From: an uncultured Halanaerobiales bacterium
GTDB taxonomy: Bacteria; Bacillota; Halanaerobiia; Halanaerobiales; M55B127
Length of the DNA stretch: 64,000 nucleotides
Assembly: GCA_964430875.1 (NCBI GenBank)
Contig: CAYSHP010000006.1
Span: 5,699 to 69,698, forward strand
Direction: 5' to 3'
The notes beneath the pieces are model-generated. The model was not told the origin of the DNA and searched no databases. It saw only the letters and a program-made list of their open reading frames with translations. Position numbers and translations under genes: made by a program. Shown here one piece after another: positions 4,509 to 64,000 of the stretch. Numbering within the stretch: the stretch's first letter is position 1; every line of letters begins with the position of its first letter.

Positions 4509-5145
4509 TAATTTCCACCTCTTTTTCATTTTTAAAACTTAAAAATTGATTTCCTAAAAACCTAGCTTCTTTTATACTATGAGTTACATAAATAAAAGGA
4601 ATATCCCATTCTTTTTGTATCATTTTAATTTCTCGCATTAATTTATTTTTTAGATTATAATCTACAGAGGATAATGGTTCATCTAATAATAATAATTCAG
4701 GTTCTATCATTAATGCTCTTGCTAAAGCCACCCTTTGTTTTTCTCCTCCAGATAATGTGGTGGGATATCTATCTTTTAATTCAGATATATGAAATTTTTC
4801 CATTAACTGAACTATTTTATGAATATCTTTTGCTTTATCCCTTTTTCCATAAATTATATTTTCAAATACATTGAGGTGGGGAAAAAGAGCATAATCCTGA
4901 AATATGTAGCCTATTTTTCTTTTAAATGTTTTAACATTTATGTTTTGCTTTGCAGAATAAAGTACCTTATTATTTAGTTTTATATACCCTCTATCCGGTG
5001 TATCTAATCCCGCTAAACAGTTTAAGATAGTTGTCTTACCGGAACCAGAGGGGCCAAAGAAAACTAATATATCATTATCTAATTGAAATTTTTTATCTAT
5101 CTTTTTACATCCAAAATCTTTTATTAGTTTAAAATCAAGGACCAT
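4483..5145 (-). CDS. modC: Molybdate/tungstate ABC transporter ATP-binding protein (short form, no TOBE domain)
   Basis: Walker A GPSGSGKTT, signature LSGGEKQRVALARAL, Walker B LLLLDEP. Sits downstream of modB. Confidence 0.8.
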   Translation of the reverse strand: MVLDFKLIKDFGCKKIDKKFQLDNDILVFFGPSGSGKTTILNCLAGLDTPDRGYIKLNNKVLYSAKQNINVKTFKRKIGYIFQDYALFPHLNVFENIIYGKRDKAKDIHKIVQLMEKFHISELKDRYPTTLSGGEKQRVALARALMIEPELLLLDEPLSSVDYNLKNKLMREIKMIQKEWDIPFIYVTHSIKEARFLGNQFLSFKNEKEVEINEYKENIS

Positions 5146-49661: not shown

Positions 49662-49926
49662 AAAATCACCCCTTTCAGTGGTTTTTGGGGTAACTGTATA
49701 TGGTATAGAAATGAGAGTTAATAAATTAATAAAAGCTATAGTAAATACAATGAAAAAACATTGCAAGAAAAATTTATCATTATCTTTACCATAGCTTAAA
49801 TTTAAATATATATATTTTTAATTCTCTTTTATAAGTTAACTTTAATTATATCACGAAATTTTTATTTAATCAATATAAATATACTAAATTTTGTTAATTA
49901 TACATTCGATATAAGATTAACTTGTG

Positions 49927-49942
49927 ATAATCATATGATTAT
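49927..49942. promoter_or_regulatory. 16-bp perfect palindrome ATAATCATATGATTAT, preceded by CTTGTGAT
   Basis: Read directly in the R1/A1 divergent intergenic region. Function unknown. Confidence 0.3.
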
Positions 49943-50025
49943 TTTTACTATTAATATATTAAGAACTTCTATATATACAATCTAATTACTTTTATGGAAA
50001 ATATTTATTAAAAAAATTAATTTAT

Positions 50026-50040
50026 TTGTGATTATCACAA
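50026..50040. promoter_or_regulatory. Palindrome TTGTGAT-T-ATCACAA, candidate operator about 180 bp upstream of gene A1
   Basis: 15-bp palindrome. The 9-mer TTTGTGATT recurs at the equivalent distance upstream of gene B1 (54555). Confidence 0.35.
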
Positions 50041-50206
50041 GACATAGAAATGATACCTAAGTGCTATTATTAAAACAAGCAGGGAATTTATAAAAATATA
50101 AAAAAAGGAGGGGGTTGAAAAATAAGTTTTATGCCGGTGATTATTGGGCGGACCGAATTAAGTAGTTTGGTATCTTAAAATAAAAAAACATAAGGAGTGT
50201 TAAATA

Positions 50207-50839
50207 ATGAAAAAATTAGGTATTGGTATATTTGTTTTGATGTTTATTGTATTGGTAGCTATGCCAGTTTTAGCTCTTAATGAGTTAGTTGATATTGATG
50301 ATTCTACTTTATGCTATCCTGATTTCTGGACATGGGTAGACGACCGTGATGATAATAGTGTTGACAAAGACTTATTTGATGATAAAGATATGGTTGATTT
50401 TGATGTAAAATTCTGTGGTTTAGGTCAAGGTTTAGGTGGCCAAAGTGTAAATGGTGTAATGTTTATGGAAAAAAATTATGAAAGATCCGATGTAATTAAT
50501 GGTGGTTCATATGCAAATGCTCATGGCATAGTAACCACTCAAATGTCATCTGGTAATTCAAATTTACAATCTGCTGCTATTTATGCAGATGTTAAATACT
50601 TGGGTGATATTGACCTAGTACCAGTAGGACAAAGTGTTAATGGAGTATTATTCCTAGAAAAAGGTTATATGAGATATGATATGATAGGTGGCGGCGCATT
50701 CGCTAATGCTGTTGGTATTATAACAACTCAACTATCCTCAGGTAATGCAAATCTACAACAAGCTATTGTTGATATAGAAGTAAATCCATCTGTTTTCTGT
50801 CATCCAGCTCCAGCTCCAATTTGCCCATGTAGCAAATAG
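50207..50839 (+). CDS. A1: secreted two-repeat N/Q/G-rich protein (candidate fibre subunit)
   Basis: Signal peptide ..AMPVLA|LNE. Acidic Asp-rich linker. Two 52-aa repeats with 63-aa period (GQSVNGV.F.EK.Y.R.D.I.GG.[YF]ANA.GI.TTQ.SSGN.NLQ). Cys-rich tail CHPAPAPICPCSK. AAGGAG SD. Confidence 0.8.
   Translation: MKKLGIGIFVLMFIVLVAMPVLALNELVDIDDSTLCYPDFWTWVDDRDDNSVDKDLFDDKDMVDFDVKFCGLGQGLGGQSVNGVMFMEKNYERSDVINGGSYANAHGIVTTQMSSGNSNLQSAAIYADVKYLGDIDLVPVGQSVNGVLFLEKGYMRYDMIGGGAFANAVGIITTQLSSGNANLQQAIVDIEVNPSVFCHPAPAPICPCSK
50438..50782 (+). repeat. Tandem coding repeat in A1 (2 x about 156 nt, period 189 nt)
   Basis: Residues 78-129 and 141-192 align with more than 60% identity. Confidence 0.85.
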
Positions 50840-50852
50840 TTTGATATAAAAT

Positions 50853-50885
50853 GCAGGGTATTTGATATACCCTGCTCTAGTTTCC
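50853..50885 (+). terminator. Intra-operon hairpin/attenuator after A1
   Basis: GCAGGGTAT-TTGAT-ATACCCTGC located 14 nt after the stop. Weak T tract. The counterpart after B1 has the same GCAGGGT/ACCCTGC core. Confidence 0.55.
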
Positions 50886-50927
50886 TTGTTAAGTATAGTA
50901 GAATAATTCTTATAAGGAGGAAAATTT

Positions 50928-51626
50928 ATGAAAGTTGATAAAATAATATTTATAAACATCTTAATAATATTATTGGTTTTCAGTATAAGTGGATTTACCT
51001 TTGCTGACAACGTTAGCTTTAGGATTTTTTCCTCCGGTATGAGAATTAATACTACTGTTGAAAGTATCGCTGAATTAAGGTTTAAAAATGTCGTCAAACA
51101 AAAATATGATATAAGCTGTGGATCAGCCGCCTTAGCTACTATATTTCAATTTAATTATAACGATGAGGTAAGTGAACAAGAAATCATCGATATGATTTTG
51201 GGAATTAAAAATATTAGTAGTCTAAAAAATGAATCTGGTTTTAATCTGCTAGATTTAAAAATGGCTGCAGAGTTTTTTGGATACACAGCTCATGGTTTAA
51301 AAGGTAGTCTTGCAGCTATTAGTAAAATTAATTTGCCAATGATTGTTCTCTTAGAAGCACCTCAGGGTCCTCATTTTGTAGTAGTTAGAAAAATCAATGA
51401 AGACTCTGTACAAGTGGCTGACCCTGCTTTGGGTAATCAGTCCATTAAAATTGATAAGTTTGAAAAACAATGGAATAATATATTATTGGCAATTGAAAGC
51501 CGAAATAAAGTCTTAAATGATAATCTTGAAGTTTATGAAATACCTCTTATAACAGGAGGAAAAGATATTATGAGGACTTTAAATGATAGTTGGACAAGAA
51601 TACCTTTTAACCATATAGAATTTTAG
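50928..51626 (+). CDS. A2: periplasmic C39-family cysteine peptidase
   Basis: Signal peptide ..FTFA|DNV. Q58-x5-C64 (KQKYDISCGSAALATIFQ), and H149 (GPHFVVV) with D165 exactly 16 residues later (VADPALG). These are the C39 catalytic set and spacing. AGGAGG SD. Confidence 0.85.
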   Translation: MKVDKIIFINILIILLVFSISGFTFADNVSFRIFSSGMRINTTVESIAELRFKNVVKQKYDISCGSAALATIFQFNYNDEVSEQEIIDMILGIKNISSLKNESGFNLLDLKMAAEFFGYTAHGLKGSLAAISKINLPMIVLLEAPQGPHFVVVRKINEDSVQVADPALGNQSIKIDKFEKQWNNILLAIESRNKVLNDNLEVYEIPLITGGKDIMRTLNDSWTRIPFNHIEF

Positions 51627-51673
51627 ACTAGGATATATTATAATAATCTCTTTAAAAGTTAAGGAGGGGGATA

Positions 51674-52051
51674 ATGAAAAACACATTTAAAATCAGTGGT
51701 TTGTTGTTTATGATTCTTATGTTAATACTCTTATCACCTTCTATAACAGCTGCTGATTTCCCCGCAGAATTTGAAAAGGTTTCTGATTCTGAATTGGCTG
51801 CTATAGAAGGAATGGGAAATATATTTGAAATTGTCGAAATTGCAGAAAACGGTTATGAGTTTAGCTATAGTGGAAATAGAGACAATGCTTTCCAAAATGC
51901 CTCAGGTATTATTAGTGTCAGCAATGTTTCTGGTAATGGTAATACAGTTCAAAATATCATAGACCTAAAAGTATGGATTATGAATATTAATGGAAACATA
52001 AATATTGATATTGATGATCTTGGACAATATCTTCAAGAAATGAATTTATAA
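51674..52051 (+). CDS. A3: small secreted one-repeat protein with double-glycine-type leader motif after the signal peptide
   Basis: Signal peptide ..SITA|ADFP. VSDSELAAIEGMG resembles LSxxELxxIxGG. One copy of the NAFxNAxGI..V.N.SGN.N..QN repeat. GGAGGGGG SD. Confidence 0.8.
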   Translation: MKNTFKISGLLFMILMLILLSPSITAADFPAEFEKVSDSELAAIEGMGNIFEIVEIAENGYEFSYSGNRDNAFQNASGIISVSNVSGNGNTVQNIIDLKVWIMNINGNINIDIDDLGQYLQEMNL

Positions 52052-52067
52052 ATAAAGAATGTTTTCA

Positions 52068-52101
52068 ACCCTCCATTTTTAAGGATGGAGGGTCCTTTTT
52101 T
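52068..52101 (+). terminator. Intra-operon terminator/attenuator between A3 and A4
   Basis: ACCCTCCAT-(8 nt)-ATGGAGGGT followed by CCTTTTTTAC. A similar CCTCCAT/ATGGRGG hairpin sits between B3 and B4. Confidence 0.7.
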
Positions 52102-52171
52102 ACTATAATTAAAAAGGATTAATAATATTAATAGCGAATTATAATTTATAAAATTGAGAGGAGTATAACTT

Positions 52172-53059
52172 ATGAAAAAAATATTAGTCTTTTTATTTAC
52201 TTTGCTTCTTTTTTTAATTTTTATTAATTTTAGTATAGGAGAAATAGTACAGGCCAAAAGTCCCTTTGAAATAGATGTCAGTTTATCTTATTTACATAGT
52301 TCAAATAATAGATTAGCGGTATCAGGTTATAGTGTAATTGAAGTATTAAATGTAGGAAAATTTGAAGTTAGAAAAATAAATAGAGATATACTATCAACAA
52401 ATATAAGATTAAGACACACCACACCTGAAACTAGTGTCGAATTGATAATACCTTATACCTTTAGAAGAGATGAAATTATTAAGTATGCAGATGTGGATTC
52501 TGACACAAATGAACCGACTAGAGAAGTATTAAGCGGGAATGGTTTGGGTGATATACTTTTAAATATACAAACAGATATCAAATATGGTGATGTACATCTG
52601 CAAAATACTCAAGTAAATCTAGGATTGAAAACTTCTACGGGTAAATGGTATGATCCTAAATCAGGTATGTCATTTACATCTGGTCATTATGGATTCAAAT
52701 TGGGTATATCACATATGATACCTATTGATCCCATAGTACTATTTGGAAGTACTAATTATTTTTGGAATATAAAACAATATAATGTAGATCCTGGAGATTC
52801 AATACAATATTCAATGGGGGTAGCCTATGCATTAACACAAAATTTCTCTGTTAATGCCCGCTTTGAGCATACTTTAACAGGAAGTACAGTAAATAATGGA
52901 AGAACAGTTATAGAATCAAGTTCTAATTCTGCAACTTTATATATGGGAGGAAGTTATGTTTCACAAAAAGGTGTTCCCTTTGATGTAATAATAGGTACTG
53001 GTTTAACTGAAGATGCTGCCGATTTCTCTTTTCAACTTAGTAGACCATTTTATTTCTAA
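52172..53059 (+). CDS. A4: small outer-membrane beta-barrel protein (candidate export pore)
   Basis: Signal peptide ..IVQA|KSP. Alternating amphipathic strands throughout. C-terminal beta-signal ..FQLSRPFYF ends in Phe. Size and pattern recall the 'MetA-pathway/transporter' OM barrel family (unverified). Confidence 0.75.
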   Translation: MKKILVFLFTLLLFLIFINFSIGEIVQAKSPFEIDVSLSYLHSSNNRLAVSGYSVIEVLNVGKFEVRKINRDILSTNIRLRHTTPETSVELIIPYTFRRDEIIKYADVDSDTNEPTREVLSGNGLGDILLNIQTDIKYGDVHLQNTQVNLGLKTSTGKWYDPKSGMSFTSGHYGFKLGISHMIPIDPIVLFGSTNYFWNIKQYNVDPGDSIQYSMGVAYALTQNFSVNARFEHTLTGSTVNNGRTVIESSSNSATLYMGGSYVSQKGVPFDVIIGTGLTEDAADFSFQLSRPFYF

Positions 53060-53093
53060 CTTTGTATAGATTGATAATTAAATATCTTTAGAT

Positions 53094-53121
53094 AAAAAGC
53101 AGCTTTAAAGCTGCTTTTTTT
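53094..53121. terminator. Bidirectional terminator shared by A4 (+) and regulator R2 (-)
   Basis: 18-nt palindrome AGCAGCTTTAAAGCTGCT flanked by an A-run and a T-run. Same CAGCTTTAAAGCTG core as the hairpin at 48486-48509. Confidence 0.8.
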
Positions 53122-54277
53122 ATATGCTATCAAAATTATATCTAATATCTTCCTTATTTATTTTAAGTTCTTCTTTAATCTCTTCTTTCAATCTTTTTAT
53201 AACTTTATTTACATCTGCTCTAGACATATCCTTAAGTAACATTAAATACTTATCAAAATCCCACCGAGTAATAACATCTCCTTTTCTTAATTCTTTTTCA
53301 ATAATATTTTCTACAATATAATCATTTTGTTTTAAAATATTTTCATTTTCAAATTTTAAATAACTAATAAAAACCGGTTTATCTCTCCTTTCATTCCGTC
53401 TCTCTTCTAATTCGTAAATCATTCTAAATATATCATTTTTACAACTAAAGGCCCCTTTGATATTATTTCTATTTTTTAGTTCTCCTTGAATATCATTAAT
53501 AAAATTATTATTTTTCTTATTATTTTCCGTAAAAATATTATTAAGTTTAGGTGATTTACTTATATCTAAATTTTCACTGAAAAGATTATTGGCATAATTA
53601 TAATGTGATCTAGCATGTGCATGCTCTCCTAACTTAATTAAAGCATCTAAATAATTACTATGAAGTTCTTCTTCATAAGATTCTATATTTAAAGCTTTTT
53701 CAGCTATTGACTCTATTTCTCTATATCTTTCATATTTTTTCAATAAATTAATGAATTCTAGAACTTTTTCAACAAATAACCAGTGGTAATTATTTCGATA
53801 AGGTATAACCCACTCTTGATAAGGTATTTCTGGTAAATAATCTCCTTGATATAAGTTTAAGGCCTCTTTATATAAAGGTATCGCTTGGGCTGGATTATTC
53901 TTTTTTAACTTAGTTGCTTTTTTACTCATTGCAATAAATTCTTCGATATCTAACCAATAGTTTGCATCCTGATTAAAAAAGCAGTTCCCATTAGAGTTGA
54001 TTATATATTGATCACTTTCTTCATTATTAAATAAATTTAGTTGTTTTCTTAATCTGTATACTAAATTTGTAATAGCATGTTTGGGTTTTTTAATATTCTT
54101 TTTAGGCCAAAGATCATTACTAATAACTTCAGAATGTAAGTTTTTTTCTTTTCCAGTAATTAAATATTTGAAAAATAACCACGGTTTTGAATTAAATTTT
54201 TCTTTGGGAGATAATATTTTGCCCTTATATTCAACTTTAAACTTACCTAAGGTATAAATTTCTAATATGTTATCCAT
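53120..54277 (-). CDS. Regulator R2: SARP/BTAD-type activator with degenerate GGDEF-like C-terminus (paralog of R1)
   Basis: YTLGKFKV..KPWLFFKYL..ITNLVYRLRKQL, then WLDIEEF..YQGDYLPE. C-terminal LRKGDVITRWDFDKYLMLL. GGTGGGG SD. Confidence 0.7.
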   Translation of the reverse strand: MDNILEIYTLGKFKVEYKGKILSPKEKFNSKPWLFFKYLITGKEKNLHSEVISNDLWPKKNIKKPKHAITNLVYRLRKQLNLFNNEESDQYIINSNGNCFFNQDANYWLDIEEFIAMSKKATKLKKNNPAQAIPLYKEALNLYQGDYLPEIPYQEWVIPYRNNYHWLFVEKVLEFINLLKKYERYREIESIAEKALNIESYEEELHSNYLDALIKLGEHAHARSHYNYANNLFSENLDISKSPKLNNIFTENNKKNNNFINDIQGELKNRNNIKGAFSCKNDIFRMIYELEERRNERRDKPVFISYLKFENENILKQNDYIVENIIEKELRKGDVITRWDFDKYLMLLKDMSRADVNKVIKRLKEEIKEELKINKEDIRYNFDSI

Positions 54278-54554
54278 AATACCCCACCAATTTATCTTTT
54301 TGGATAACTAATGTCTAGAATAATAATTACTTTTTAAAAATAAATAATATAAATTTCTTGTGAATACCTATCTTCATTTCTTTTAAATTAATTTTAACAA
54401 ACCTTAGTAATTTTATCAAGTTTTATTATCATATGTTATCTTATAAATCTAATAATGATTTTTTCATGAGTATTTTATGATTAAATAAATAATTTATCCC
54501 ACTATAAGTATATTAAAACTTATAATTACCATATTTTAAATTCATCTGTTAAAT

Positions 54555-54573
54555 TTTGTGATTTTCATGTGAG
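54555..54573. promoter_or_regulatory. TTTGTGATT-containing element (TGTGA-N6-TGTGA) about 190 bp upstream of B1
   Basis: Shares the 9-mer TTTGTGATT with the locus-A palindrome, at a similar distance from the start codon. Confidence 0.3.
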
Positions 54574-54659
54574 TTTGTTGTAATTATTTTCTGATAAGTG
54601 GTTGTTATGATATAAGCAAGCTGAATTGAAAACAAAATAATTAACTCGAAAGGTAGAAA

Positions 54660-54722
54660 CAAAAATATTTAATTACTTCCTTTTGGAATTATTGAGTTTT
54701 CAATTCAAAAATATTTAATTAC
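54660..54722 (+). repeat. 17-bp perfect direct repeat CAAAAATATTTAATTAC (x2, 46 bp apart) in the B1 leader
   Basis: Copies at 54660-54676 and 54706-54722. A 12-bp inverted repeat TGAATTGAAAAC / GTTTTCAATTCA (54622-54633 / 54696-54707) brackets the first copy. Confidence 0.5.
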
Positions 54723-54744
54723 AAAAACTTAGGAGGGTTTTAAA

Positions 54745-55257
54745 ATGAGAAAATTGTTAGGTATTGGCACTGCATTGATGGTTCTGATGGTATTAGTCGC
54801 TGTTCCAGCTGTAGCCCAGGAGGCATTTAATAATGAAGAAATGCCCGGCTATTATTATGGGGAAGATGTAATCTTTGATGATGCTGAGACTGAAGAAATT
54901 TATATCGGAGAAGAAATCTATTACAGAGATGATCTTATTACCAATAATGCCTTCCGAGATGCACTAGGTATAACAACCGTTCAACAAGCTGCTGGTAATG
55001 CTAGTGTTTTAGAAAGTAATGTTACTATTGAAGGCTTAGAAGAAGCAGATGAATTTGAATTAAGCGCTCAGGAAGTTGAAGTAGAAGAAGTACTAATTAT
55101 GGAAAGAGACTATACCAGAGTTGATACAATATCTGGTAACGCTTTCCGTAATGCAACTGGTATTACTACTGTTCAACAAGCTGCTGGTAATGCAAATGTC
55201 GTTCAATCTAATGTAGAGGTAAATATTGGAGCAGCCTTTGCAGCTCCCGAACTATAA
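54745..55257 (+). CDS. B1: secreted two-repeat N/Q/G-rich protein (paralogous role to A1)
   Basis: Signal peptide ..VPAVA|QEA. Highly acidic. Two repeats (..D.I..NAFR[DN]A.GITTVQQAAGNA.V..SNV) with 64-aa period. AGGAGGG SD. Confidence 0.8.
   Translation: MRKLLGIGTALMVLMVLVAVPAVAQEAFNNEEMPGYYYGEDVIFDDAETEEIYIGEEIYYRDDLITNNAFRDALGITTVQQAAGNASVLESNVTIEGLEEADEFELSAQEVEVEEVLIMERDYTRVDTISGNAFRNATGITTVQQAAGNANVVQSNVEVNIGAAFAAPEL
54916..55221 (+). repeat. Tandem coding repeat in B1
   Basis: Residues about 58-95 and 117-159. The core NAFR.A.GITTVQQAAGNA is identical in both copies. Confidence 0.85.
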
Positions 55258-55270
55258 CAAGAACAAATAA

Positions 55271-55300
55271 AGCAGGGTGTAATCACCCTGCTTTTCTATT
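55271..55300 (+). terminator. Intra-operon terminator/attenuator after B1
   Basis: AGCAGGGTG-TAAT-CACCCTGCT followed by TTTTCTATTTAT. Confidence 0.7.
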
Positions 55301-55327
55301 TATCAATGTAAAAGGGGAGAATTTAAA

Positions 55328-56023
55328 ATGAAAAACAAAAAACCTTTAATTATTATTATCATTTTATTTTTAATATTCAGTACAGTTGGTTTAGTCAAAG
55401 CAGGAAATGTAAAATTTCAGGTGTTCTCCTCTGGCCCTACAATAACTAGAAATATAAAAAGTAAAACTGAAATTAAATTTCATAAAATAGTTAAACAGAA
55501 ATATGATGTAAGTTGTGGCTCAGCTTCATTAGCAACCATATTTCAATATTACTATAATGATGAAATTTCAGAACAAGAAATAATAAATATAATAAAAAAC
55601 ATTAAAAATATTGACACTTTAAAAAATAGTGCTGGTTTTACTTTATTAGATTTAAAGATGGCTGCTGAGTTTTTAGGTTATAAAGCTTATGGTCTAAAAG
55701 GAGATATTAAAGCCATAAGAAAATTAGATCTACCAATAATTGTGCTTCTTAATTCCCCTAAAGGACCTCACTTTGTAGTTATTAAAGAAGTTAAAACCAA
55801 TTCTGTAAAAATAGCGGATCCAGCTCTTGGAAATTTAAATCTTAGTATTGAAAAATTTAAATCACAATGGAATAAAACATTACTAGCAATAGAAAGTAAA
55901 AATAGTATTGGAAATAATAATTTCAGCAGTTTTGAAAAGCCTAATTTACCACAAGAAAATCATATATTTAATTTAATTGAAAATAATTGGACTAGATTAC
56001 CAAAAGATCATAAAGAATTTTAA
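55328..56023 (+). CDS. B2: periplasmic C39-family cysteine peptidase (paralog of A2)
   Basis: Signal peptide ..LVKA|GNV. Q57-x5-C63 (KQKYDVSCGSASLATIFQ). GPHFVVI with Asp 16 residues after His (IADPALG). Confidence 0.85.
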   Translation: MKNKKPLIIIIILFLIFSTVGLVKAGNVKFQVFSSGPTITRNIKSKTEIKFHKIVKQKYDVSCGSASLATIFQYYYNDEISEQEIINIIKNIKNIDTLKNSAGFTLLDLKMAAEFLGYKAYGLKGDIKAIRKLDLPIIVLLNSPKGPHFVVIKEVKTNSVKIADPALGNLNLSIEKFKSQWNKTLLAIESKNSIGNNNFSSFEKPNLPQENHIFNLIENNWTRLPKDHKEF

Positions 56024-56069
56024 TTTATCTGGTTTTTAAATTGTAAAAATGAAAGGTAGGAGGGAGATC

Positions 56070-56441
56070 ATGCATAAAAAATTAATTGTTAAATTGATTA
56101 TGTCGGTATTAATGGTCTCAATTATTATAACTCCTATTTCAGCTGCCGAAATTCCCGAAGGGTTAAATAGTTTAAATGAAAAGGAATTATCAGGTATTAG
56201 AGGTATGGGGCAAAATTTTAGTATAGAACAAATAAATTCATCAAATGTAAAATTTAGATACAGTAGTAATAAAGATAACGCCTTTAAACATGCCTCAGGA
56301 GTTATGAATATAACAAATGTTTCCGGAAATGAAAATACAATAAATAATGTAGTAGACCTAAAGATTAATATCTATAATATTGAAGAAGTTGAAAATCTTG
56401 AACTATCTGATATTAAAAATATGGTCAATCTTAAAAATTAA
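56070..56441 (+). CDS. B3: small secreted one-repeat protein with double-glycine-type leader motif (paralog of A3)
   Basis: Start set at MHKKL (GGAGGGAG SD). Signal peptide ..PISA|AEIP. LNEKELSGIRGMG motif. Repeat DNAFKHASGVMNITNVSGNENTINN. Confidence 0.78.
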   Translation: MHKKLIVKLIMSVLMVSIIITPISAAEIPEGLNSLNEKELSGIRGMGQNFSIEQINSSNVKFRYSSNKDNAFKHASGVMNITNVSGNENTINNVVDLKINIYNIEEVENLELSDIKNMVNLKN

Positions 56442-56455
56442 TGGTTAATAAAAGA

Positions 56456-56486
56456 ATATCCTCCATTAATATGGGGGATATTTTTA
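56456..56486 (+). terminator. Intra-operon terminator/attenuator between B3 and B4
   Basis: ATATCCTCCAT-TAAT-ATGGGGGATAT (one G.U/mismatch) followed by TTTTTAC. Confidence 0.7.
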
Positions 56487-56521
56487 CTTAGTATTTAATA
56501 AATGATCTGGGGGTAAACAAA

Positions 56522-57391
56522 ATGAAAAAGCATATAATAATTTTTTCTTTATTAATAATGTTTTTATTCTCAAGCTTTATTTTGCAAACAAACTTTAGTC
56601 AAGCAAAAAGTCCCTTTGAAATAGAAATAGGTACTTCTTATTCGCATAGTTCTAATAACAGATTAAATGTGAGTGGATATAGTGTAGTTGAAGTGGTAAA
56701 TATAGGAAAGCTGGAAGTTAGAAAAATCAGAAGGGATATTTTGACTTCCAATTTAAAATTAAGATATAAAAATCAAAGATCAAGTTTTGAAATAGTAATA
56801 CCTTATAAAGTACAAAGAAAAAGTGTAATAAAATATGCGGACACTACTGAAAATGGAGAACCCACTGAAAAAATAAAAACTTCTCATGGTTTAGGCGATG
56901 TTATGATCAATTTAAATACAAATATTAAAAGCAAAAATACTAAATTTAATATAGGAGTTAAAACAACTACCGGGCAGGAATATGGTAATGAAACCGATAT
57001 GAATTTTGGTTCTAATTATTATGGTTTAAAATTAGGCATAAGTCATATAAAACAATTAGATCCTGTAGTCTTTTTTGGCAGTGTAAATTACTTTTGGAAT
57101 ATAGAAAAAGATAATTATAATCCAGGTGATACATTACAATATTCTTTAGGCTTAGCATATGCTTTAAGTCAAAACTTATCTTTAAACACTAGAATCGAAC
57201 AGTCTATAACTTCTAGTTCATATCAAAATAATGACAAAATAATTGGTACCAGTATAAATGCATCCTCCTTATATTTAGGAACTAATTATACAAATCAAAG
57301 TGGCTCTTCCTTTAATTTTCTTATTGGTCTTGGTCTATCTGAAGATTCTGTTGATTATTCTCTACAAATAAATAAGCCATATTATTTTTAA
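56522..57391 (+). CDS. B4: small outer-membrane beta-barrel protein (paralog of A4)
   Basis: Signal peptide ..FSQA|KSP. Same N-terminal KSPFEI.. block as A4. C-terminus ..LQINKPYYF. Confidence 0.75.
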   Translation: MKKHIIIFSLLIMFLFSSFILQTNFSQAKSPFEIEIGTSYSHSSNNRLNVSGYSVVEVVNIGKLEVRKIRRDILTSNLKLRYKNQRSSFEIVIPYKVQRKSVIKYADTTENGEPTEKIKTSHGLGDVMINLNTNIKSKNTKFNIGVKTTTGQEYGNETDMNFGSNYYGLKLGISHIKQLDPVVFFGSVNYFWNIEKDNYNPGDTLQYSLGLAYALSQNLSLNTRIEQSITSSSYQNNDKIIGTSINASSLYLGTNYTNQSGSSFNFLIGLGLSEDSVDYSLQINKPYYF

Positions 57392-57410: not shown

Positions 57411-59195
57411 TCAATTTCTGTTTTTCATTTCATACATGAAGTAATCAGCTTCTTTAAAGACCTCTTCAAGTTCTGTTTTGTGATCCTTTTTTACTCCGAA
57501 ACCAGTAGATATACTAATCGGAAACTCATATTTTTCATCTAATTTATTAACATTGGTTTGTATCCTTTGTTCTATTTTTTTAACTTCATCTTCGTCTGTT
57601 TGAGGGAGTAAAATTGCAAATTCATCTCCTCCCACCCGAGCAAGTATATCTTCTTGTCTTACTGCATTGTCTATCTCACTAGCAACTAGATTAATATATT
57701 TATCGCCTCTGGCATGACCAAATTTATCATTTACTTTTTTCAAACCATCAATATCAGACATAATAATACTAATTGGTAGTAACCTTGAATTATCTAACCT
57801 TTCCATTTCACTTTCGAAATATCTTCTATTATATAATCCAGTCATTTGATCATGAAAAGATAAGTATTTAATCTCTTCTTCTTCTTTTTTTCTTTGGGTA
57901 ATATCATTATAAATTGCATATAAGCCAATTTGACCTTCTTTTAAACTAATTGGGAAAGCATGTATTGTAACATCTACTGTTTTACCTTCTTTTGTTTTGC
58001 GAACCGATTCTTTTTCAATGTCCTGATTATTTAAGACTTTTTTAGTATAATTTTGTCCTTCTTCTTTTTTAGTTTCAGGCACTATTAGATCATCTATGTT
58101 TTTATCTTTTGCTTCTGATTGTGAATAACCAAATAAATTCTCAAAACTTTTATTTATCTTAAGGATTTGATTTTCATTATCTAAAAGAGCAATTGCCTCA
58201 GTTGACTCATCGAATAATTGTTGAAAGAATGCTTTTTGTCTTCTTAACTTTCTTTCAGTTTCTTTTCTTTCAGTTATGTCATTATATATGGCATATATCC
58301 CTATTTGGCCTTTACCTAATTTTATGGGAAAAGAATGCATGGAAACAAAAATTCTTTTACCCTCTTTTGTCTTTCTAATTGTTTCTAACTTCACTTCTTT
58401 GCCTGCAATATTTTTTTTGGTATTATTAATGCCTTCTTCTATTTTTTCTTCGGGAGTTATCAGATCATCTATGTTCTTCCCTTTAATCTCTTTTGCCTGA
58501 TAACCAAATACTTTTTCAAAACTTTTATTTACTTTAATAATCTTGCTTTTATTATCTAAGAGAGCAATTGCTTCGGTTGACTCATTAAACAATTGTTGGA
58601 AATATGCTTGATGTTCTTTTAATCTTTTTTCAACATCTTTTCTATAAAAGGCTTCTGTGATATTCAAAAGATAATTTAATACTTTTTTATCTTCTTTACT
58701 AAAATTAACATCTCTATTTTCATCAATATCTAAAGTTATGCCACCTACTGCTTGCTCTTTAAAGTATAAATCAAAAGTAATGGAATCTTTAATTGGTTTT
58801 GATGCCTCTTCTAATTTTGAATAAGTATTATTATCGGTTGAGTCTTTTGTAATATCTATTACTTCACTAATAATAGAGACTTGATTTTTGCGGTCAGACA
58901 GCTGAAATACACTCTCATCTATTGCAATCTGTTTAAGCACAGCAAGATTATGTCCAACAGTATCTAAAAATTTTACTTTACCATCTACATATTTATAAAC
59001 ACTACCATAATCAGCCTTTTTGATTAAATTCATAGCTGTCTTTAAGAGTTTTGACCAAAATATTTTTTCATCTTCAATACTTATTTCATTGAGTTTATTA
59101 GAAAAATTGATAATTCTTTCAAAACTCTTGTTTAATTCATTAACTCTCTTATTTAGCTGTTTAATTTTCTCTTTTAATTCAGCAATTTCATGCAT
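57411..59195 (-). CDS. Diguanylate cyclase: coiled-coil/GAF-like N-terminus, tandem PAS, GGDEF with I-site
   Basis: Two roughly 113-aa PAS units (QQLF[ND]ESTEAIALLDN..). LTGLYNRRYF, DIDGLKKVNDKFGH, and RQED-x5-GGDEF (active A-site plus RxxD I-site). Confidence 0.9.
   Translation of the reverse strand: MHEIAELKEKIKQLNKRVNELNKSFERIINFSNKLNEISIEDEKIFWSKLLKTAMNLIKKADYGSVYKYVDGKVKFLDTVGHNLAVLKQIAIDESVFQLSDRKNQVSIISEVIDITKDSTDNNTYSKLEEASKPIKDSITFDLYFKEQAVGGITLDIDENRDVNFSKEDKKVLNYLLNITEAFYRKDVEKRLKEHQAYFQQLFNESTEAIALLDNKSKIIKVNKSFEKVFGYQAKEIKGKNIDDLITPEEKIEEGINNTKKNIAGKEVKLETIRKTKEGKRIFVSMHSFPIKLGKGQIGIYAIYNDITERKETERKLRRQKAFFQQLFDESTEAIALLDNENQILKINKSFENLFGYSQSEAKDKNIDDLIVPETKKEEGQNYTKKVLNNQDIEKESVRKTKEGKTVDVTIHAFPISLKEGQIGLYAIYNDITQRKKEEEEIKYLSFHDQMTGLYNRRYFESEMERLDNSRLLPISIIMSDIDGLKKVNDKFGHARGDKYINLVASEIDNAVRQEDILARVGGDEFAILLPQTDEDEVKKIEQRIQTNVNKLDEKYEFPISISTGFGVKKDHKTELEEVFKEADYFMYEMKNRN
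57888..58601 (-). repeat. Tandem PAS-domain duplication inside the cyclase gene (period 125 aa)
   Basis: Residues 199-311 and 324-436 are about 60% identical. Confidence 0.8.
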
Positions 59196-61770: not shown

Positions 61771-62035
61771 CTAATCACTCCCCCTTAGATATTAAAGTAA
61801 AATGGGTATATTATTTCACTTACATCTTATATATTATTTATTCTTTTACACTTCTATTATTCCTTTAAAAATATATGATAAGAAAATAATTTGCAATATT
61901 TGTTTGTCCAAAAGGTAATTCTATTGTATAATAAAAAATATAAAGAATCTTTATTAATCTACTAACCATTGAATAAGTTATTAATCAAGCAATTATATAT
62001 AATAAAATAATCCCTGATGAAAGGTGATTAATAAT

Positions 62036-63430
62036 ATGAAATCAATAAACAAAAAAGATAAAATAAATCTTTGGAAGAACATAGAAAGCATAGACCTCTT
62101 ATATGAAAAAATTAAAAATATGGAAAGTAATAAAAATATAGAGAGTTTTAATCTAACATTATATTTATTTGACTTTAAAGAACTTAACCTAAGTTACTCT
62201 GATTATATAAAATTATTCAGTAAAATAATATCAATTTTAAAAAATTATTCTAATAAATATGTTGAGTTATACTGTTTGGAGCAAGATAAGATAATTTTGT
62301 TTAATGAAAAACAAACTATAAATTCTAAAATAAAGAATATGTTAAAAAGTAGAAAATTTAATATTGATAATAAAAAATTATCCTTATCTCCTCAAATTGC
62401 AAGTGTTAATTGGCCTCGGGATGGTAATGATTTTGATAGTTTATTAGAAAAATTATTGACAAAAATTAAAAATGATAATTCTGACATTAATTACCCAATT
62501 CTGTCTTCTCGACCAGGAAGTGTATTTATTAATAAAAAGGATGACTTTTTGGACAAAGTTGAAAAAATATCAACTCAGCTTTATCTAATAGATAAAGATA
62601 AAAATATTGAAATAATTAAACAAAATATTATTGCTGATAGAACTTTTCAGGTAAGAGGTGGGGAAAAAGGCAACTTTGAATTATTTTATATACTTGCCGG
62701 AAAAGTAGTTTATGAAGAAGAAAATATAGTTTTAACTAAAGGTGATTCTATAAGTGCCCGAAGTGGTGAACAAGAAAAATATTTTAAAACAATAACAGAT
62801 ACCACTTTACTTTATATAACTTCTAATCCAATCTTTGCTAGTGAGCAAAGAAGAATAAAAGAACTTATATCTCTAAATGAAAAAATTGAAGAAAAAGATG
62901 TAGAAACAAGAGAACACTGTGATCGGCTGCAAAAATTAAGTCGTTTAACAGCTATTGAATTAAGCTTAGAAGAGAAAAAAATATTTAATCTCGGTTTCGC
63001 TTCTTTTTTACATGATATTGGAAAAGCAAAAGTACCTTCCTCATTACTACAAAAACCTGACAAGTTAACTAAAAAAGAATGGGAACTTATGAAAAAACAC
63101 ACTAAATGGGGTAAAGAAATTATTTTAGAACATTTTAATAAAAGTTATTTTCATAAAATAGCTGAAATAATTAATCAACACCATGAAAGGTGGGACGGTT
63201 TCGGTTATCCCAAAGGTTTATCGGGAAATGAAATCTTAATTGAAGCTCAAATTTTAAGTGTAGTTGATGCTTTTGATGCTATGACTTATGAAAGACCCTA
63301 TCAAAGGGCTTTTAGTCGTAAAGAAGCTATCGAAGAAATTAAATTTGAAAAAGAAAAACAATTTTCTCCTAAGGCAGTAGAAGCATTTTTAAAAGCTGAA
63401 CAAAAGTTTTTTGAAAAAAATAGTCAATAG
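62036..63430 (+). CDS. HD-GYP domain protein (c-di-GMP phosphodiesterase-type) with central cupin-like domain
   Basis: HDIGKAKVP and HHERWDGFGYPKGL HD-GYP signatures. Central GGEKGNFELFYILAGKV..GDSI is a cupin-like beta-barrel. Start set at MKSINK (AGGTGA SD 8 nt upstream). Confidence 0.85.
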   Translation: MKSINKKDKINLWKNIESIDLLYEKIKNMESNKNIESFNLTLYLFDFKELNLSYSDYIKLFSKIISILKNYSNKYVELYCLEQDKIILFNEKQTINSKIKNMLKSRKFNIDNKKLSLSPQIASVNWPRDGNDFDSLLEKLLTKIKNDNSDINYPILSSRPGSVFINKKDDFLDKVEKISTQLYLIDKDKNIEIIKQNIIADRTFQVRGGEKGNFELFYILAGKVVYEEENIVLTKGDSISARSGEQEKYFKTITDTTLLYITSNPIFASEQRRIKELISLNEKIEEKDVETREHCDRLQKLSRLTAIELSLEEKKIFNLGFASFLHDIGKAKVPSSLLQKPDKLTKKEWELMKKHTKWGKEIILEHFNKSYFHKIAEIINQHHERWDGFGYPKGLSGNEILIEAQILSVVDAFDAMTYERPYQRAFSRKEAIEEIKFEKEKQFSPKAVEAFLKAEQKFFEKNSQ

Positions 63431-63583: not shown

Positions 63584-63826
63584 TTATTTTCCGGCTACCA
63601 CTATTGGATTATCAGCATTACCATTTTCAGCAGCATCTGGCAATATTTGCAGAAATAAGATTACTAATTCTCCTAAATATTCAGTTATTGAACCATCGTA
63701 CTCAACCAAAACTTTTACACCAGCTGAATTTTGGGGAGCCTTTCCCTCAACTTCTGCAAAAGCTACAGCAGAAAAGGAAATTAGTAATGCAATCATCATT
63801 AAAAAAATTATCGAGTGTTTTAACAT
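63584..63826 (-). CDS. Small secreted protein (80 aa), function unknown, riboswitch-controlled
   Basis: Strong SD AAAGGAGGG 6 nt before the ATG. Signal peptide ..SAVAFA|EVE. Sits directly behind a GEMM-I aptamer. Confidence 0.7.
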   Translation of the reverse strand: MLKHSIIFLMMIALLISFSAVAFAEVEGKAPQNSAGVKVLVEYDGSITEYLGELVILFLQILPDAAENGNADNPIVVAGK

Positions 63827-63831
63827 TTTTT

Positions 63832-63920
63832 CCCTCCTTTATAACCCGGCTATCTGTTTTAATCAGACCCGTGGCTTTGTGTCTCCACCTCTCGATGGAT
63901 TTACCCTACTGGAGGAACAG
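63832..63920 (-). promoter_or_regulatory. c-di-GMP-I (GEMM-I) riboswitch
   Basis: Minus strand: ..CCUCCAGUAGGGUAAAUCCAUCGAGAGGUGGAGACACAAAGCCACGGGUCUGAUUAAAACAGAUAGCCGGGUUAUAAAGGAGG. This aligns block-for-block with the Vc2 aptamer as I remember it (CAGGGCAAACC-stem-GAAA-stem-GGGACGCAAAGCC-hairpin-GUAGCGGGGUUACC). It includes a GNRA loop (GAGA). Confidence 0.75.
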
Positions 63921-63923
63921 AAT

Positions 63924-63948
63924 AAAAAAATGCCTCTTAAAAAGAGAC
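63924..63948 (-). terminator. Terminator hairpin upstream of the GEMM-I aptamer, with a competing antiterminator
   Basis: Minus strand: GUCUCUU-UUU-AAGAGGC followed by AUUUUUUUAUU. The CUCUU arm can alternatively pair with an upstream AAGAG (63942-63972 region). Confidence 0.6.
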
Positions 63949-64000
63949 AGGTATAAAATCCTGTTCCCTCTTCGGCAACTCAGGCAACCATAACCTTTAT

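What the first reader, a model, noticed from the sequence alone, without database searches (positions are those of the whole stretch)
63832..63920. GEMM-I (c-di-GMP-I) riboswitch controlling an 80-aa secreted protein; closing helix appears to use the Shine-Dalgarno
**Seen in the sequence.** The minus-strand sequence matches the conserved GEMM-I blocks: AGGGUAAA, a GNRA-capped hairpin (CCAUC-GAGA-GGUGG), GACACAAAGCC, a second hairpin (GUCUG..CAGAU), and AGCCGGGUUA. The 5' flank CCUCC (63912-63916) is complementary to the GGAGG of the SD (63833-63837).

**Inference.** If these form P1, ligand binding would sequester the SD, giving a translational OFF switch. The regulated ORF encodes a signal-peptide-bearing 80-aa protein with no recognisable family. 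The ACACAAAGCC variant of the usual ACGCAAAGCC leaves open altered ligand specificity, since GEMM-I variants that sense cGAMP exist.
Basis: partly seen in the sequence, partly recalled or inferred. Interest (0 to 1): 0.65.

Follow-up and report, generated by a model that had tools for sequence, protein, structure and literature searches.

The report
Tandem c-di-GMP riboswitch, small secreted protein
The flagged RNA is a genuine class-I c-di-GMP riboswitch whose closing helix contains the ribosome-binding site, but it is only the second half of a two-riboswitch leader cut by the window edge, so it is an ordinary member of a well-known family with a few unusual details.

Summary
Confirmed. Window 63915-63837 (-) matches Rfam RF01051 (c-di-GMP-I/GEMM-I) at 60.3 bits (gathering score 35, E 2.7e-9).

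The closing helix P1 (UUCCUCC 63917-63911 with GGAGGGA 63837-63831) contains the Shine-Dalgarno, 6 nt before the ATG of an 80-aa signal-peptide protein.

It is followed by an antiterminator/terminator pair (63972-63924). The leader is therefore a tandem riboswitch, a known and common arrangement for this class.

All 12 distinct related leaders, from Halanaerobiales-type metagenome contigs, have the same tandem layout, an invariant anti-SD and the same synteny: ComFB, leader plus small ORF, convergent HD-GYP.

The 'ACACAAAGCC' variant is a compensated base pair (U63903-A63880). It is not a pocket change.

The real pocket change is U at Vc2 position 92 (63841), where every relative has C. G20 and A47 are kept.

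Most likely mechanism: two c-di-GMP OFF switches in series, termination and then SD masking. This is inferred, not tested.

Novelty: new member of a known kind. Open points are the ligand affinity or specificity of the U92 pocket, possible strand-exchange coupling of the two aptamers, and the function of the orphan protein.

The parts
63971..64000 (-). 3' part of upstream GEMM-I aptamer 1. It is cut by the window end. The full aptamer is seen in the same-species contig L001 at 4805-4895.
   Evidence: The window is identical to L001-L006 over this stretch. L001 4805-4895 matches RF01051 at 46.3 bits, E 8.6e-8, with a canonical GAAA tetraloop, an 11-nt receptor, G20, A47 and C92.
63963..63974 (-). 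3' strand of aptamer 1's P1 (CGAAGAGGGAAC; segment 'b'). It pairs with GUUCCUU..CACG just beyond the window end.
   Evidence: A constrained fold gives a 7-bp lower stem plus CG/CG. The same pairing is possible in 6 of 6 group-A leaders.
63941..63972 (-). Antiterminator hairpin H1 (AAGAGGGAACAGG / CCUGUCUCUUU). It shares its 5' arm with P1 of aptamer 1 and its 3' arm with the terminator.
   Evidence: It is the MFE of the nascent transcript at -38.5 kcal/mol, against -38.0 for P1 plus terminator. It is conserved in L008, L010, L011, L032 and L038.
63924..63949 (-). Intrinsic terminator H2 (UGUCUCUU-UUU-AAGAGGCA followed by U7).
   Evidence: The terminator scan finds an 8-bp stem followed by a T run. 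It is conserved with a U.G to U-A change in L038.
63911..63923 (-). Segment 'f', AUUCUGUUCCUCC. UUCCUCC (63917-63911) is the anti-SD, that is the 5' strand of P1 of aptamer 2. UUCUGUUCCUCC is invariant in all relatives and is also complementary to segment b.
   Evidence: These are invariant columns in alignment A3 and in all 12 leaders. The full-length MFE pairs b with f.
63837..63915 (-). GEMM-I aptamer 2, the finding. J1/2 is AGUAGG 63910-63905, with G20 = 63905. The P2 base pairs are G63904-C63879 and U63903-A63880. P2 is 63899-63884 with a GAGA loop. C44 = 63881, A47 = 63878, P3 is 63876-63843, G83 = 63850 and position 92 = U63841.
   Evidence: RF01051 scores 60.3 bits. 98.6% of cells are paired in 11 leaders against 42% or less when slid, and 2 pairs carry compensatory changes. 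RF03168 (UAU variant) scores 58.5 bits, below its gathering score of 65.9.
63841..63841 (-). U at the position equivalent to Vc2 C92, the nucleotide that Watson-Crick pairs with one guanine of c-di-GMP. It is specific to this species.
   Evidence: It is T in the window and in six other assemblies. It is C in all 10 other distinct leaders of the clade and in all 10 curlin-clade aptamers. The role of C92 is taken from PMC5888326 and PMC5049679.
63831..63837 (-). Shine-Dalgarno GGAGG (63837-63833), which is part of the 3' strand of P1 of aptamer 2 (GGAGGGA).
   Evidence: Shown by the sequence and by the folds.
63584..63826 (-). Regulated ORF of 80 aa. It has an N-terminal signal peptide (MLKHSIIFLMMIALLISFSAVAFA|E) and a conserved C-terminal NPIxVAGx. 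It is an orphan family.
   Evidence: ORF list. No Pfam or NCBIfam family. Only 5 remote relatives were found among 1.84 billion cluster representatives. The 12-member alignment is A4. Third-codon-position bias is seen. The AlphaFold model has mean pLDDT 54, with only the signal-peptide helix confident.
62024..63430 (+). Convergent HD-GYP-type phosphodiesterase gene. It is a syntenic partner of the module in all relatives.
   Evidence: Pfam HD_5 at 2.5e-34. The synteny is seen in L001-L013.

Best explanation
The feature is the downstream aptamer of a tandem class-I c-di-GMP (GEMM-I) riboswitch leader.

**Layout.** A promoter lies about 40 nt beyond the window end. Its transcript runs through:
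- aptamer 1, which has a canonical pocket;
- an antiterminator/terminator pair;
- aptamer 2;
- the Shine-Dalgarno and the ATG of an 80-aa secreted protein.

**Step 1, transcription.**
- When c-di-GMP binds aptamer 1, its P1 helix captures GAGGGAAC.
- The antiterminator (63972-63941) then cannot form, so the terminator (63949-63931 plus U7) stops transcription.

**Step 2, translation.**
- In transcripts that read through, c-di-GMP binding to aptamer 2 stabilises P1 (UUCCUCC/GGAGGGA).
- That helix buries the Shine-Dalgarno and blocks initiation.

**Outcome.** Both switches are OFF switches, so the protein is made only at low c-di-GMP, with a steeper response than one switch would give.

**Pocket change in this species.** Aptamer 2 has U instead of C at the guanine-pairing position 92. 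This most likely lowers its c-di-GMP affinity through a G.U wobble rather than changing the ligand.

**Shown here:** family membership, the tandem layout, the complementarities and their conservation.

**Inferred:** ligand identity, the direction of switching and the effect of U92.
For: - **Aptamer 2:** RF01051 at 60.3 bits.
- **Aptamer 1:** RF01051 at 46.3 bits in the same-species contig L001, which is identical to the window over the shared stretch.
- **Tandem layout in relatives:** every relative examined has both aptamers.
- **Helix support:** P2 and P3 are 98.6% paired with compensatory changes in 11 distinct leaders. A population SNP in L006 turns a U.G pair into U-A.
- **P1 and the SD:** the anti-SD UUCUGUUCCUCC and the SD GGAGG are invariant, although the encoded proteins are only 43-55% identical. 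RNAfold closes the aptamer with the SD in 10 of 10 clade leaders, and also in 10 of 10 leaders of an independent curlin-associated clade whose 5' strands differ.
- **Aptamer 1 platform:** the terminator is found by the scan. The antiterminator state and the P1-plus-terminator state differ by 0.5 kcal/mol here and by 0.5-4.7 kcal/mol in six species. The antiterminator is the unliganded MFE in five of the six. This is the usual signature of a ligand-tipped OFF switch.
- **Ligand-stabilised P1:** established for Vc2 (PMC5049679).
- **Pocket:** G20, A47 and the C44-G83 equivalents are present (definitions).
- **Tandem GEMM-I is common:** 347 doublets are reported (PMC9481103).
- **Context:** the neighbours are a ComFB c-di-NMP receptor family protein, an HD-GYP protein and a PAS-GGDEF protein.
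Against: - No experiment supports any step. Ligand binding and switching direction are inferred.
- P1 of aptamer 2 is invariant, so there is no covariation for it within the clade.
- Three extra nucleotides (AAA 63840-63838) separate position 92 from the SD-containing helix. In Vc2, C92 abuts P1, so the exact P1 register is uncertain.
- Equilibrium folding predicts the SD to be 50-95% paired even without ligand. Its partner is either the anti-SD or the 5' strand of aptamer 1's P1, so a clear ON state is not obvious thermodynamically.
- U92 removes a defining ligand contact. In Vc2, C92U markedly weakens the response (bioRxiv 10.1101/617340).
- The curlin-associated clade has the same SD-in-P1 design. 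Repression of a curlin by c-di-GMP would be counter-intuitive, which warns that the simple reading 'P1 equals OFF' may be incomplete.
Confidence: 0.68

Rival explanations
1. Aptamer 2 has changed ligand. With G20 kept and U at position 92, it could bind 3'3'-cGAMP, with the G recognised by G20 and the A Watson-Crick paired to U92. It could also bind another G/A dinucleotide. The leader would then integrate two different signals: c-di-GMP at aptamer 1 and cGAMP at aptamer 2.
For: - U92 is fixed in seven assemblies of this species, while all relatives have C.
- Single pocket substitutions are known to re-target GEMM-I. G20A gives cGAMP binding (PMC6140456). G20A/C92U binds c-di-AMP (PMC7288161, PMC9049102).
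- Rfam holds a separate c-di-GMP-I-UAU variant family. This aptamer scores 58.5 bits against it.
Against: - The score is below the UAU gathering score of 65.9, and position 20 is G, not U.
- From my recollection of Smith et al. 2010, a paper the library does not hold: C92U is one of the common natural GEMM-I variants and still binds c-di-GMP through a wobble.
- The GGDEF protein in the window has the canonical N...D guanine-contact residues by eye, with no Hypr signature. This was not formally tested.
- No cGAMP synthase was seen, and only 64 kb of the genome was available.
- The change is confined to one species, which suits drift or affinity tuning better than a new signalling input.
Confidence: 0.1
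2. In this species aptamer 2 is a weakened or decaying sensor. The SD is masked by the anti-SD more or less constitutively, as a plain translational attenuator, and all real c-di-GMP control comes from aptamer 1 and its terminator.
For: - U92 removes a ligand contact.
- P1 forms in the unliganded MFE of the isolated aptamer.
- The SD is predicted to be mostly paired in all modelled states.
- This species' small protein is also unusually divergent in its middle part, which fits relaxed constraint on the module.
Against: - Apart from position 92, the aptamer is as conserved here as in the relatives. Every other ligand-contacting or tertiary nucleotide is intact, and the Rfam score of 60.3 lies within the range of the relatives, 57.6-63.1.
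- Vc2 C92U still responded partly when c-di-GMP was raised.
Confidence: 0.14
3. Aptamer 2 is an ON switch. Without ligand the SD is held by another partner, namely the 5' strand of aptamer 1's P1 or an extended pyrimidine tract. Ligand binding would re-register P1 so that the ribosome can load.
For: - The full-length MFE pairs the SD with segment a (GUUCCU) rather than with the anti-SD, here and in L007 and L017.
- The curlin-associated clade with the same design would be expected, from the usual link between c-di-GMP and biofilm matrix, to be switched on by c-di-GMP.
- A second possible register (U12-A95, C11-G96, C10-G97...) leaves part of the SD free. This comes from my inspection of the sequence.
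Against: - Every possible P1 register uses at least GGAG of the SD. No sequence other than the SD lies 3' of position 92 that could pair with the 5' flank.
- Aptamer 1 has an OFF architecture, so an ON aptamer 2 sensing the same ligand would give almost no expression window.
Confidence: 0.06

Closest known systems
Vc2 (tfoY) c-di-GMP-I riboswitch of Vibrio cholerae, the structural archetype (PDB 3IRW)
   Same: - Three-helix junction.
- J1/2 of six nucleotides ending in A-G-G20: CACAGG in Vc2, AGUAGG here.
- A47 and the C44-G83 bridge.
- GNRA tetraloop on P2.
- An OFF switch acting on translation.
   Different: - U instead of C at position 92.
- A GAGA loop without the 11-nt receptor ('type 2' docking).
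- Three extra A residues between position 92 and P1.
- The SD lies inside P1 itself. As I recall the title of Inuzuka et al. 2018 (not retrieved here), the Vc2 RBS lies at a distance from the aptamer.
- It is the second of two aptamers.
Tandem c-di-GMP-I riboswitches: 347 doublets and 12 triplets in Sherlock et al. 2022 (PMC9481103), and the Bc3-5 triple tandem of Bacillus thuringiensis (PMC4759541, cited within)
   Same: Two complete GEMM-I aptamers in one leader. They probably sense the same ligand and give a more digital response.
   Different: - The two platforms here are of different kinds: an intrinsic terminator, then SD masking.
- The two P1 helices share sequence, so their strands are cross-complementary.
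- The second pocket differs from the first at position 92.
GEMM-Ib cGAMP riboswitches and the Rfam variant families c-di-GMP-I-UAU (RF03168) and c-di-GMP-I-GGC (RF03167)
   Same: The same fold, with a substitution at a ligand-contacting position.
   Different: - GEMM-Ib changes position 20 (G to A). Here position 20 is G.
- UAU changes both 20 and 92. Here only 92 is changed, and the score is below that family's threshold.
- GGC changes A47. Here A47 is kept.
P1/SD-overlap translational riboswitches of other classes, such as SAM-III (SMK box) and preQ1 types
   Same: The ligand-stabilised helix directly contains the Shine-Dalgarno, so no separate expression platform is needed.
   Different: A different aptamer fold and a different ligand.

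Membership tests
c-di-GMP-I (GEMM-I) riboswitch, Rfam RF01051 | Covariance-model score at or above the curated gathering score of 35 bits | tested here: met
   60.3 bits, E 2.7e-9, full-length model match at 63915-63837 (-).
c-di-GMP-I (GEMM-I) riboswitch, Rfam RF01051 | P2 and P3 helices supported by base-pair conservation or covariation | tested here: met
   20 pairs are 98.6% paired in 11 distinct leaders, against 34-42% when slid. Two P3 pairs carry compensatory changes and two P2 pairs carry one-sided changes.
c-di-GMP-I (GEMM-I) riboswitch, Rfam RF01051 | [quoted passage not shown] | tested here: met
   G63905 aligns to model position 11, the unpaired G before the GC/GU pair. The role is described in PMC5888326.
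c-di-GMP-I (GEMM-I) riboswitch, Rfam RF01051 | A at position 47 (J2/3), which intercalates between the two ligand bases | tested here: met
   A63878 is the first A after the AC of GACAC-AAAGCC. The role is described.
c-di-GMP-I (GEMM-I) riboswitch, Rfam RF01051 | C at position 92 (J3/1), which Watson-Crick pairs with G-beta | tested here: not met
   It is U63841 in the window and in six other assemblies, and C in all relatives. Positions 20 and 92 are reported to be less conserved than A47 across the class (PMC9049102). By my recollection, C92U is a natural variant. I therefore read this as a variant member, not an exclusion.
c-di-GMP-I (GEMM-I) riboswitch, Rfam RF01051 | Inter-helical C44-G83 Watson-Crick pair and a GNRA tetraloop on P2 | tested here: met
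   C63881 lies in GAC after P2, and G63850 lies in the AG bulge of P3. The loop is GAGA. The definitions come from PMC3764141 and PMC4744006.
c-di-GMP-I (GEMM-I) riboswitch, Rfam RF01051 | Binds c-di-GMP and changes structure | not testable with these tools
   This needs in-line probing, ITC or a gel shift.
c-di-GMP-I-UAU variant, Rfam RF03168 | Score at or above the gathering score of 65.9 bits, with U at position 20 and U at position 92 | tested here: not met
   58.5 bits, which is below threshold. Position 20 is G. Only position 92 matches.
GEMM-Ib (3'3'-cGAMP riboswitch) | A at position 20 | tested here: not met
   It is G63905 in both this aptamer and aptamer 1. The definition is in PMC6140456.
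Tandem (pseudo-cooperative) riboswitch arrangement | Two complete aptamers of one class in one leader, each with its own expression platform, between one promoter and one ORF | tested here: met
   In L001 the aptamers lie at 4805-4895 and 4952-5030, with a terminator between them and the SD after the second. The only strong promoter match lies upstream of aptamer 1 (TTGATA-17 nt-TGgTATTAT), from my inspection of the sequence. The layout is conserved in 12 leaders.

The most novel reading that the evidence does not exclude
The two aptamers may not be independent.
- Four strands are mutually cross-complementary: a (GUUCCUU), b (GAGGGAAC), f (GUUCCUCC, the anti-SD) and g (GGAGGGAA, the SD).
- The stretch UUCUGUU just 5' of the anti-SD is invariant although P1 does not need it. 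It completes a 10-11-bp b:f helix.
- The b:f helix would be the ON state, an anti-anti-SD.
- c-di-GMP binding to aptamer 1 (a:b) would release f, so that aptamer 2 could close P1 over the SD, and the reverse would also hold. This would give true cooperativity between two GEMM-I aptamers by strand exchange.
- In group-B relatives, which lack a convincing terminator, this could be the only platform.
- In this species the U92 pocket would add a second affinity, or a second ligand, to the device.
Probability: 0.22. Interest if true: 0.6.

Novelty: new member of a known kind. Interest (0 to 1): 0.33.

Why it matters
The find adds a well-conserved translational GEMM-I design to a class known mostly from terminator platforms.

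- **A compact c-di-GMP module.** It defines a module in Halanaerobiales-type anaerobes: a ComFB receptor, a tandem riboswitch, a 73-85-aa secreted orphan protein and an HD-GYP hydrolase. The output protein is completely uncharacterised.
- **A natural mutant pair.** One lineage carries U and its relatives carry C at a ligand-contacting position, in otherwise near-identical aptamers. This allows a direct test of how position 92 sets affinity or specificity.
- **A possible new class of tandem function.** If the strand-exchange coupling is real, it would be a cooperative two-aptamer c-di-GMP switch. Current catalogues list tandem GEMM-I only as independent, pseudo-cooperative units.

Otherwise the element is ordinary: a correct riboswitch call of a common class in a common arrangement.

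Tried and rejected
- **Word-indexed homologue search.** It returned only the same species. The exhaustive search was needed to find relatives.
- **Family searches for the 80-aa protein.** Pfam gave nothing. NCBIfam gave only a sub-threshold ExtJ match that rests on the signal peptide.
- **Structure prediction.** AlphaFold with a 6-row alignment gave mean pLDDT 54, and the mature part was below 50. No fold search was attempted.
- **Smith et al. 2010 (PMC3146058).** This paper holds the C92U binding data, but the library does not hold it. The affinity statement therefore rests on secondary citations and on memory.
- **Pair count for P1.** MAFFT alignment A3 mis-registers the 3' flank of three leaders that have one extra nucleotide. 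I left P1 out of the formal pair count and judged it from per-sequence folds.
- **Frameshift check.** I looked for a frameshift that could explain the divergent middle of this species' protein. None was found.
- **'ACACAAAGCC' as a specificity variant.** Rejected, because it is a compensated pair.
- **Membership of the UAU and GGC variant families.** Rejected. The UAU score is below threshold. Relatives hit the GGC model only because that model includes P1, and A47 is A, not G.
- **The antisense 129-aa ORF (63604-63993, +).** Rejected as a gene. It overlaps the riboswitch and the conserved ORF.
- **Equilibrium folding of the full leader.** It did not give a clean ON state. The competing states lie within about 4 kcal/mol of one another.
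Full report

Yes. A covariance-model scan of the whole 64-kb window against Rfam 15 returns exactly one hit at gathering threshold. It is RF01051 (c-di-GMP-I), 63915-63837 on the minus strand, at 60.3 bits (gathering score 35, E 2.7e-9), and it matches the whole model.

The SD GGAGG is at 63837-63833, 6 nt before the ATG at 63826. The complementary CCUCC is at 63915-63911, one base off the coordinates given. RNAfold of the 161-nt leader closes the canonical three-way junction with a 7-bp helix UUCCUCC/GGAGGGA. The ORF 63826-63584 encodes 80 aa with a typical Sec signal (K3, a hydrophobic core, AFA|E).

**2.

The 80-aa protein is encoded on 15 public contigs. Six of them, L001-L006, are identical to the window over the shared stretch apart from one SNP, and they extend upstream.

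In L001, about 60 nt upstream of the flagged aptamer, lies a second full GEMM-I aptamer (4805-4895, RF01051 at 46.3 bits, E 8.6e-8). It has a GAAA tetraloop, the CCUAAG/UAUGG receptor and a canonical pocket (G20, A47, C92-C93). Only its last 30 nt (64000-63971) are inside the window.

Upstream of it is a strong sigma-70-type promoter, TTGATA-17 nt-TGgTATTAT (from my inspection of the sequence). Further upstream is a ComFB-domain gene (Pfam 4e-26).

Two overlapping hairpins lie between the two aptamers:
- H1 is AAGAGGGAACAGG/CCUGUCUCUUU (63972-63941).
- H2 is UGUCUCUU/AAGAGGCA followed by U7 (63949-63924). The terminator scan flags it.

**3. Relatives.**

The word-indexed protein search found only the same species. 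The exhaustive search of 1.84 billion representatives found five remote relatives, at E 1e-6 to 8e-5. Their contigs, a scan of GTDB genomes (which gave two loci in one 'uncultured Halanaerobiales' MAG) and a DNA-pattern scan of JGI metagenomes together give 12 distinct leaders.

- All have two RF01051 aptamers in tandem.
- Wherever the contig is long enough, all show the same synteny: ComFB, then leader plus small ORF, then a convergent HD-GYP gene.
- The proteins are 73-85 aa and only 43-55% identical to the window's. They share the signal peptide (MLKRS...SFSA) and an invariant C-terminal NPIxVAG.
- Differences between orthologues fall 1650/978/2565 on codon positions 1/2/3, and indels are in frame. 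It is therefore a real, fast-evolving gene.
- No Pfam or NCBIfam family matches.
- The AlphaFold model is confident only for the signal-peptide helix (mean pLDDT 54).

**4. Anatomy of aptamer 2, in Vc2 numbering.**

The numbering follows PMC5049679: P1 closing pair G14-C93, J1/2 = C15-G20, J3/1 = C92, P2 closing pair G21-C46 and A47 stacked between the ligand bases.

| Element | Window coordinates |
|---|---|
| J1/2 | AGUAGG, 63910-63905 |
| G20 | 63905 |
| P2 base pairs | G63904-C63879 and U63903-A63880 |
| P2 | 63899-63884, GAGA loop |
| C44 | 63881 |
| A47 | 63878 |
| P3 | 63876-63843 |
| G83 | 63850 |
| A91 | 63842 |
| Position 92 | U63841 |

In an alignment of 11 distinct leaders, the 20 P2/P3 pairs are 98.6% paired, against 34-42% when the partner is slid. 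Two pairs carry compensatory changes. In L006 a population SNP converts a U.G pair to U-A.

It pairs with U63903, where the consensus has C22-G45. This U-A pair is present in all 11 aligned leaders. The same motif is present in all 10 curlin-clade aptamers, which have canonical pockets. It is a compensated helix pair, not a pocket change.

The nucleotide that distinguishes cGAMP-sensing GEMM-Ib is position 20 (PMC6140456), and it is G here.

**5. The real pocket variant.**

Position 92, which Watson-Crick pairs with G-beta (PMC5888326), is U in the window and in six other assemblies of this species. It is C in all 10 other distinct leaders of the clade and in all 10 curlin-clade aptamers.

This is why the aptamer also scores 58.5 bits against the Rfam variant family c-di-GMP-I-UAU. 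That score is below the family's gathering score of 65.9, and position 20 does not fit.

What is known about this change:
- Positions 20 and 92 are reported as less conserved than A47 (PMC9049102).
- In Vc2, C92U strongly weakens but does not abolish the in vivo response, and it is partly rescued by raising c-di-GMP (bioRxiv 10.1101/617340).
- G20A/C92U binds c-di-AMP.
- From memory only, because the paper is not held: Smith et al. 2010 describe C92U as a common natural variant that binds c-di-GMP through a G.U wobble.

I therefore read U92 as affinity tuning or drift in one lineage. A cGAMP-accepting pocket (G20 with G, U92 with A) remains a minority possibility.

**6. P1 and the Shine-Dalgarno.**

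On the 3' side of position 92 the only sequence before the ATG is AAAGGAGGGAAAAA. On the 5' side of J1/2 it is ...UUCUGUUCCUCC. Any P1 must therefore use the SD.

- The best register (C63911-G63837 ... U63917-A63831) leaves a 3-nt AAA bulge next to the pocket.
- An alternative contiguous register still uses GGAG.
- In Vc2, C92 abuts P1, and A95 is a bulged residue that makes a base triple with the G14-C93 pair (PMC3764141). The exact geometry here is therefore unresolved.

The anti-SD and the SD are invariant in all 12 leaders. This gives conservation but no covariation. RNAfold closes 10 of 10 leaders with the SD.

Independent support comes from a second clade found in the metagenome scan. 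These are single aptamers of the same subtype, in front of 141-166-aa curlin-repeat proteins (Pfam Curlin_rpt 1.1e-13; NCBIfam CsgB 6.9e-16).
- Their 3' strand is CGAGGAGGAA, which is the SD.
- Their 5' strands differ (UUCUUCUCG, UUCUUCUUG, UUUCCCUCAG) yet stay complementary through C-G to U.G changes. This comes from my inspection of the sequences.
- In 10 of 10, the MFE pairs the SD with the 5' flank.

SD-in-P1 is therefore a recurrent design in this aptamer subtype.

**7. Mechanism.**

*Aptamer 1.* The 3' strand of its P1 (CGAAGAGGGAAC, 63974-63963) is also the 5' arm of H1. The 3' arm of H1 is the 5' arm of terminator H2.

On the nascent transcript, the H1 state has -38.5 kcal/mol and the P1-plus-H2 state has -38.0 kcal/mol. 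In six species the gap is 0.5-4.7 kcal/mol, and H1 is the unliganded MFE in five of them. Ligand energy would tip the balance to P1 plus terminator, which makes a transcriptional OFF switch.

*Aptamer 2.* Ligand-stabilised P1 masks the SD, which makes a translational OFF switch.

Two OFF switches in series sensing one ligand give a steeper response. This is the accepted role of tandem riboswitches, and c-di-GMP-I is the class with the most tandem examples: 347 doublets (PMC9481103) and significant enrichment (PMC12452182).

The steps shown here are the sequences, the complementarities, their conservation and the energies. Ligand identity and switching direction are inferred.

**8. An unresolved wrinkle.**

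The four P1 strands are cross-complementary: a (GUUCCUU), b (GAGGGAAC), f (GUUCCUCC) and g (GGAGGGAA). The full-length MFE of this leader, and of L007 and L017, pairs b with f (10-11 bp) and a with g.

The invariant UUCUGUU just 5' of the anti-SD is not needed for P1, but it completes the b:f helix. Group-B relatives (L007, L009, L017), which lack a convincing terminator, keep the matching CAGGAU/CAGAAU in b.

A b:f helix would be a natural ON state, an anti-anti-SD, and would couple the two aptamers. The evidence is conservation plus thermodynamic prediction only. The states lie within about 4 kcal/mol of each other. Equilibrium folding keeps the SD mostly paired in every state. I rate this reading at about 0.2.

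**9. Context.**

The small ORF is monocistronic and is flanked by c-di-GMP genes:
- a ComFB protein, from a c-di-NMP receptor family (PMC12448109);
- an HD-GYP protein (HD_5 at 2.5e-34);
- a PAS-PAS-GGDEF cyclase at 57411-59195.

**10. Comparison and verdict.**

It works like, and is a member of, the c-di-GMP-I class. All defining features that I tested are met except C92. The tandem arrangement and SD masking are both known principles.

The following are new only in the sense of being undescribed instances:
- the particular gene association with an orphan secreted protein;
- the mixed terminator and SD platforms;
- the lineage-specific U92;
- the possible strand exchange between the aptamers.

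Novelty: new member of a known kind. Interest: about 0.33.

Noticed in passing
window 48516-57391: There are two paralogous cassettes. Each has a BTAD regulator on the minus strand, a 170-210-aa ORF, a Peptidase_C39 gene, a short ORF and a 289-295-aa outer-membrane-barrel-like protein (Phenol_MetA_deg 4e-6). The collection's precomputed Pfam calls the 170-aa ORF FapBC, but the local Pfam copy gives no hit. This looks like Fap-type functional-amyloid loci in a Halanaerobiales-type genome.
   Followed up: partly
L018-L039 (for example L020 7954-8031, L025 1362-1439): A separate metagenomic clade has a single GEMM-I aptamer of the same subtype. The 3' strand of its P1 is the SD (CGAGGAGGAA). It lies directly upstream of 141-166-aa curlin-repeat (CsgA/CsgB-like) proteins with signal peptides. 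If SD-in-P1 means OFF, c-di-GMP would repress a curlin, which is unexpected.
   Followed up: partly
L018 6209-6295 and L033 8779-8864: The curlin-clade contigs also carry c-di-GMP-II-GAG variant hits (RF03169, 50.6 and 41.0 bits against a gathering score of 40) a few kb from the GEMM-I element.
   Followed up: no
window 63870-63852 (P3 pair G63868.U63852); alignment A3 columns 59 and 79: This P3 pair is G.U in nine leaders and A.C in L010 and L011. That is an isosteric wobble swap, and it suggests the wobble geometry itself is selected.
   Followed up: no
L014 and L015 (contigs CAJXKY010000101 and CAJXKY010000019): One Halanaerobiales MAG carries two full copies of the module, each with ComFB-sized ORF, tandem GEMM-I, small ORF and HD-domain gene. 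The small proteins are 76 and 73 aa, and the downstream HD-domain ORFs differ in size: 143 aa against 459 aa.
   Followed up: partly
window 63584-63826 (-), residues 44-66: This species' small protein has a hydrophobic, divergent middle segment (EYLGELVILFLQILPDAA) where relatives have the acidic E-I-H-F-[LM]-D-A-V-N-E-N-A-K. No frameshift explains it. It occurs in the same lineage as the U92 change in the riboswitch.
   Followed up: partly
window 63604-63993 (+): A 129-aa ORF runs antisense across the small gene, the riboswitch and the terminator. It has no support and is best treated as spurious.
   Followed up: no
window 62024-63430 (+): The HD-GYP protein has a roughly 280-aa N-terminal region with no family beyond a sub-threshold cupin match. 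It may be the sensor domain of the module.
   Followed up: no
window 53120-54277 (-): The BTAD regulator next to the Fap-like cassette has a weak C-terminal GGDEF-like match (E 4.8e-4, below the Pfam cut-off). It may be a degenerate GGDEF receptor domain.
   Followed up: no
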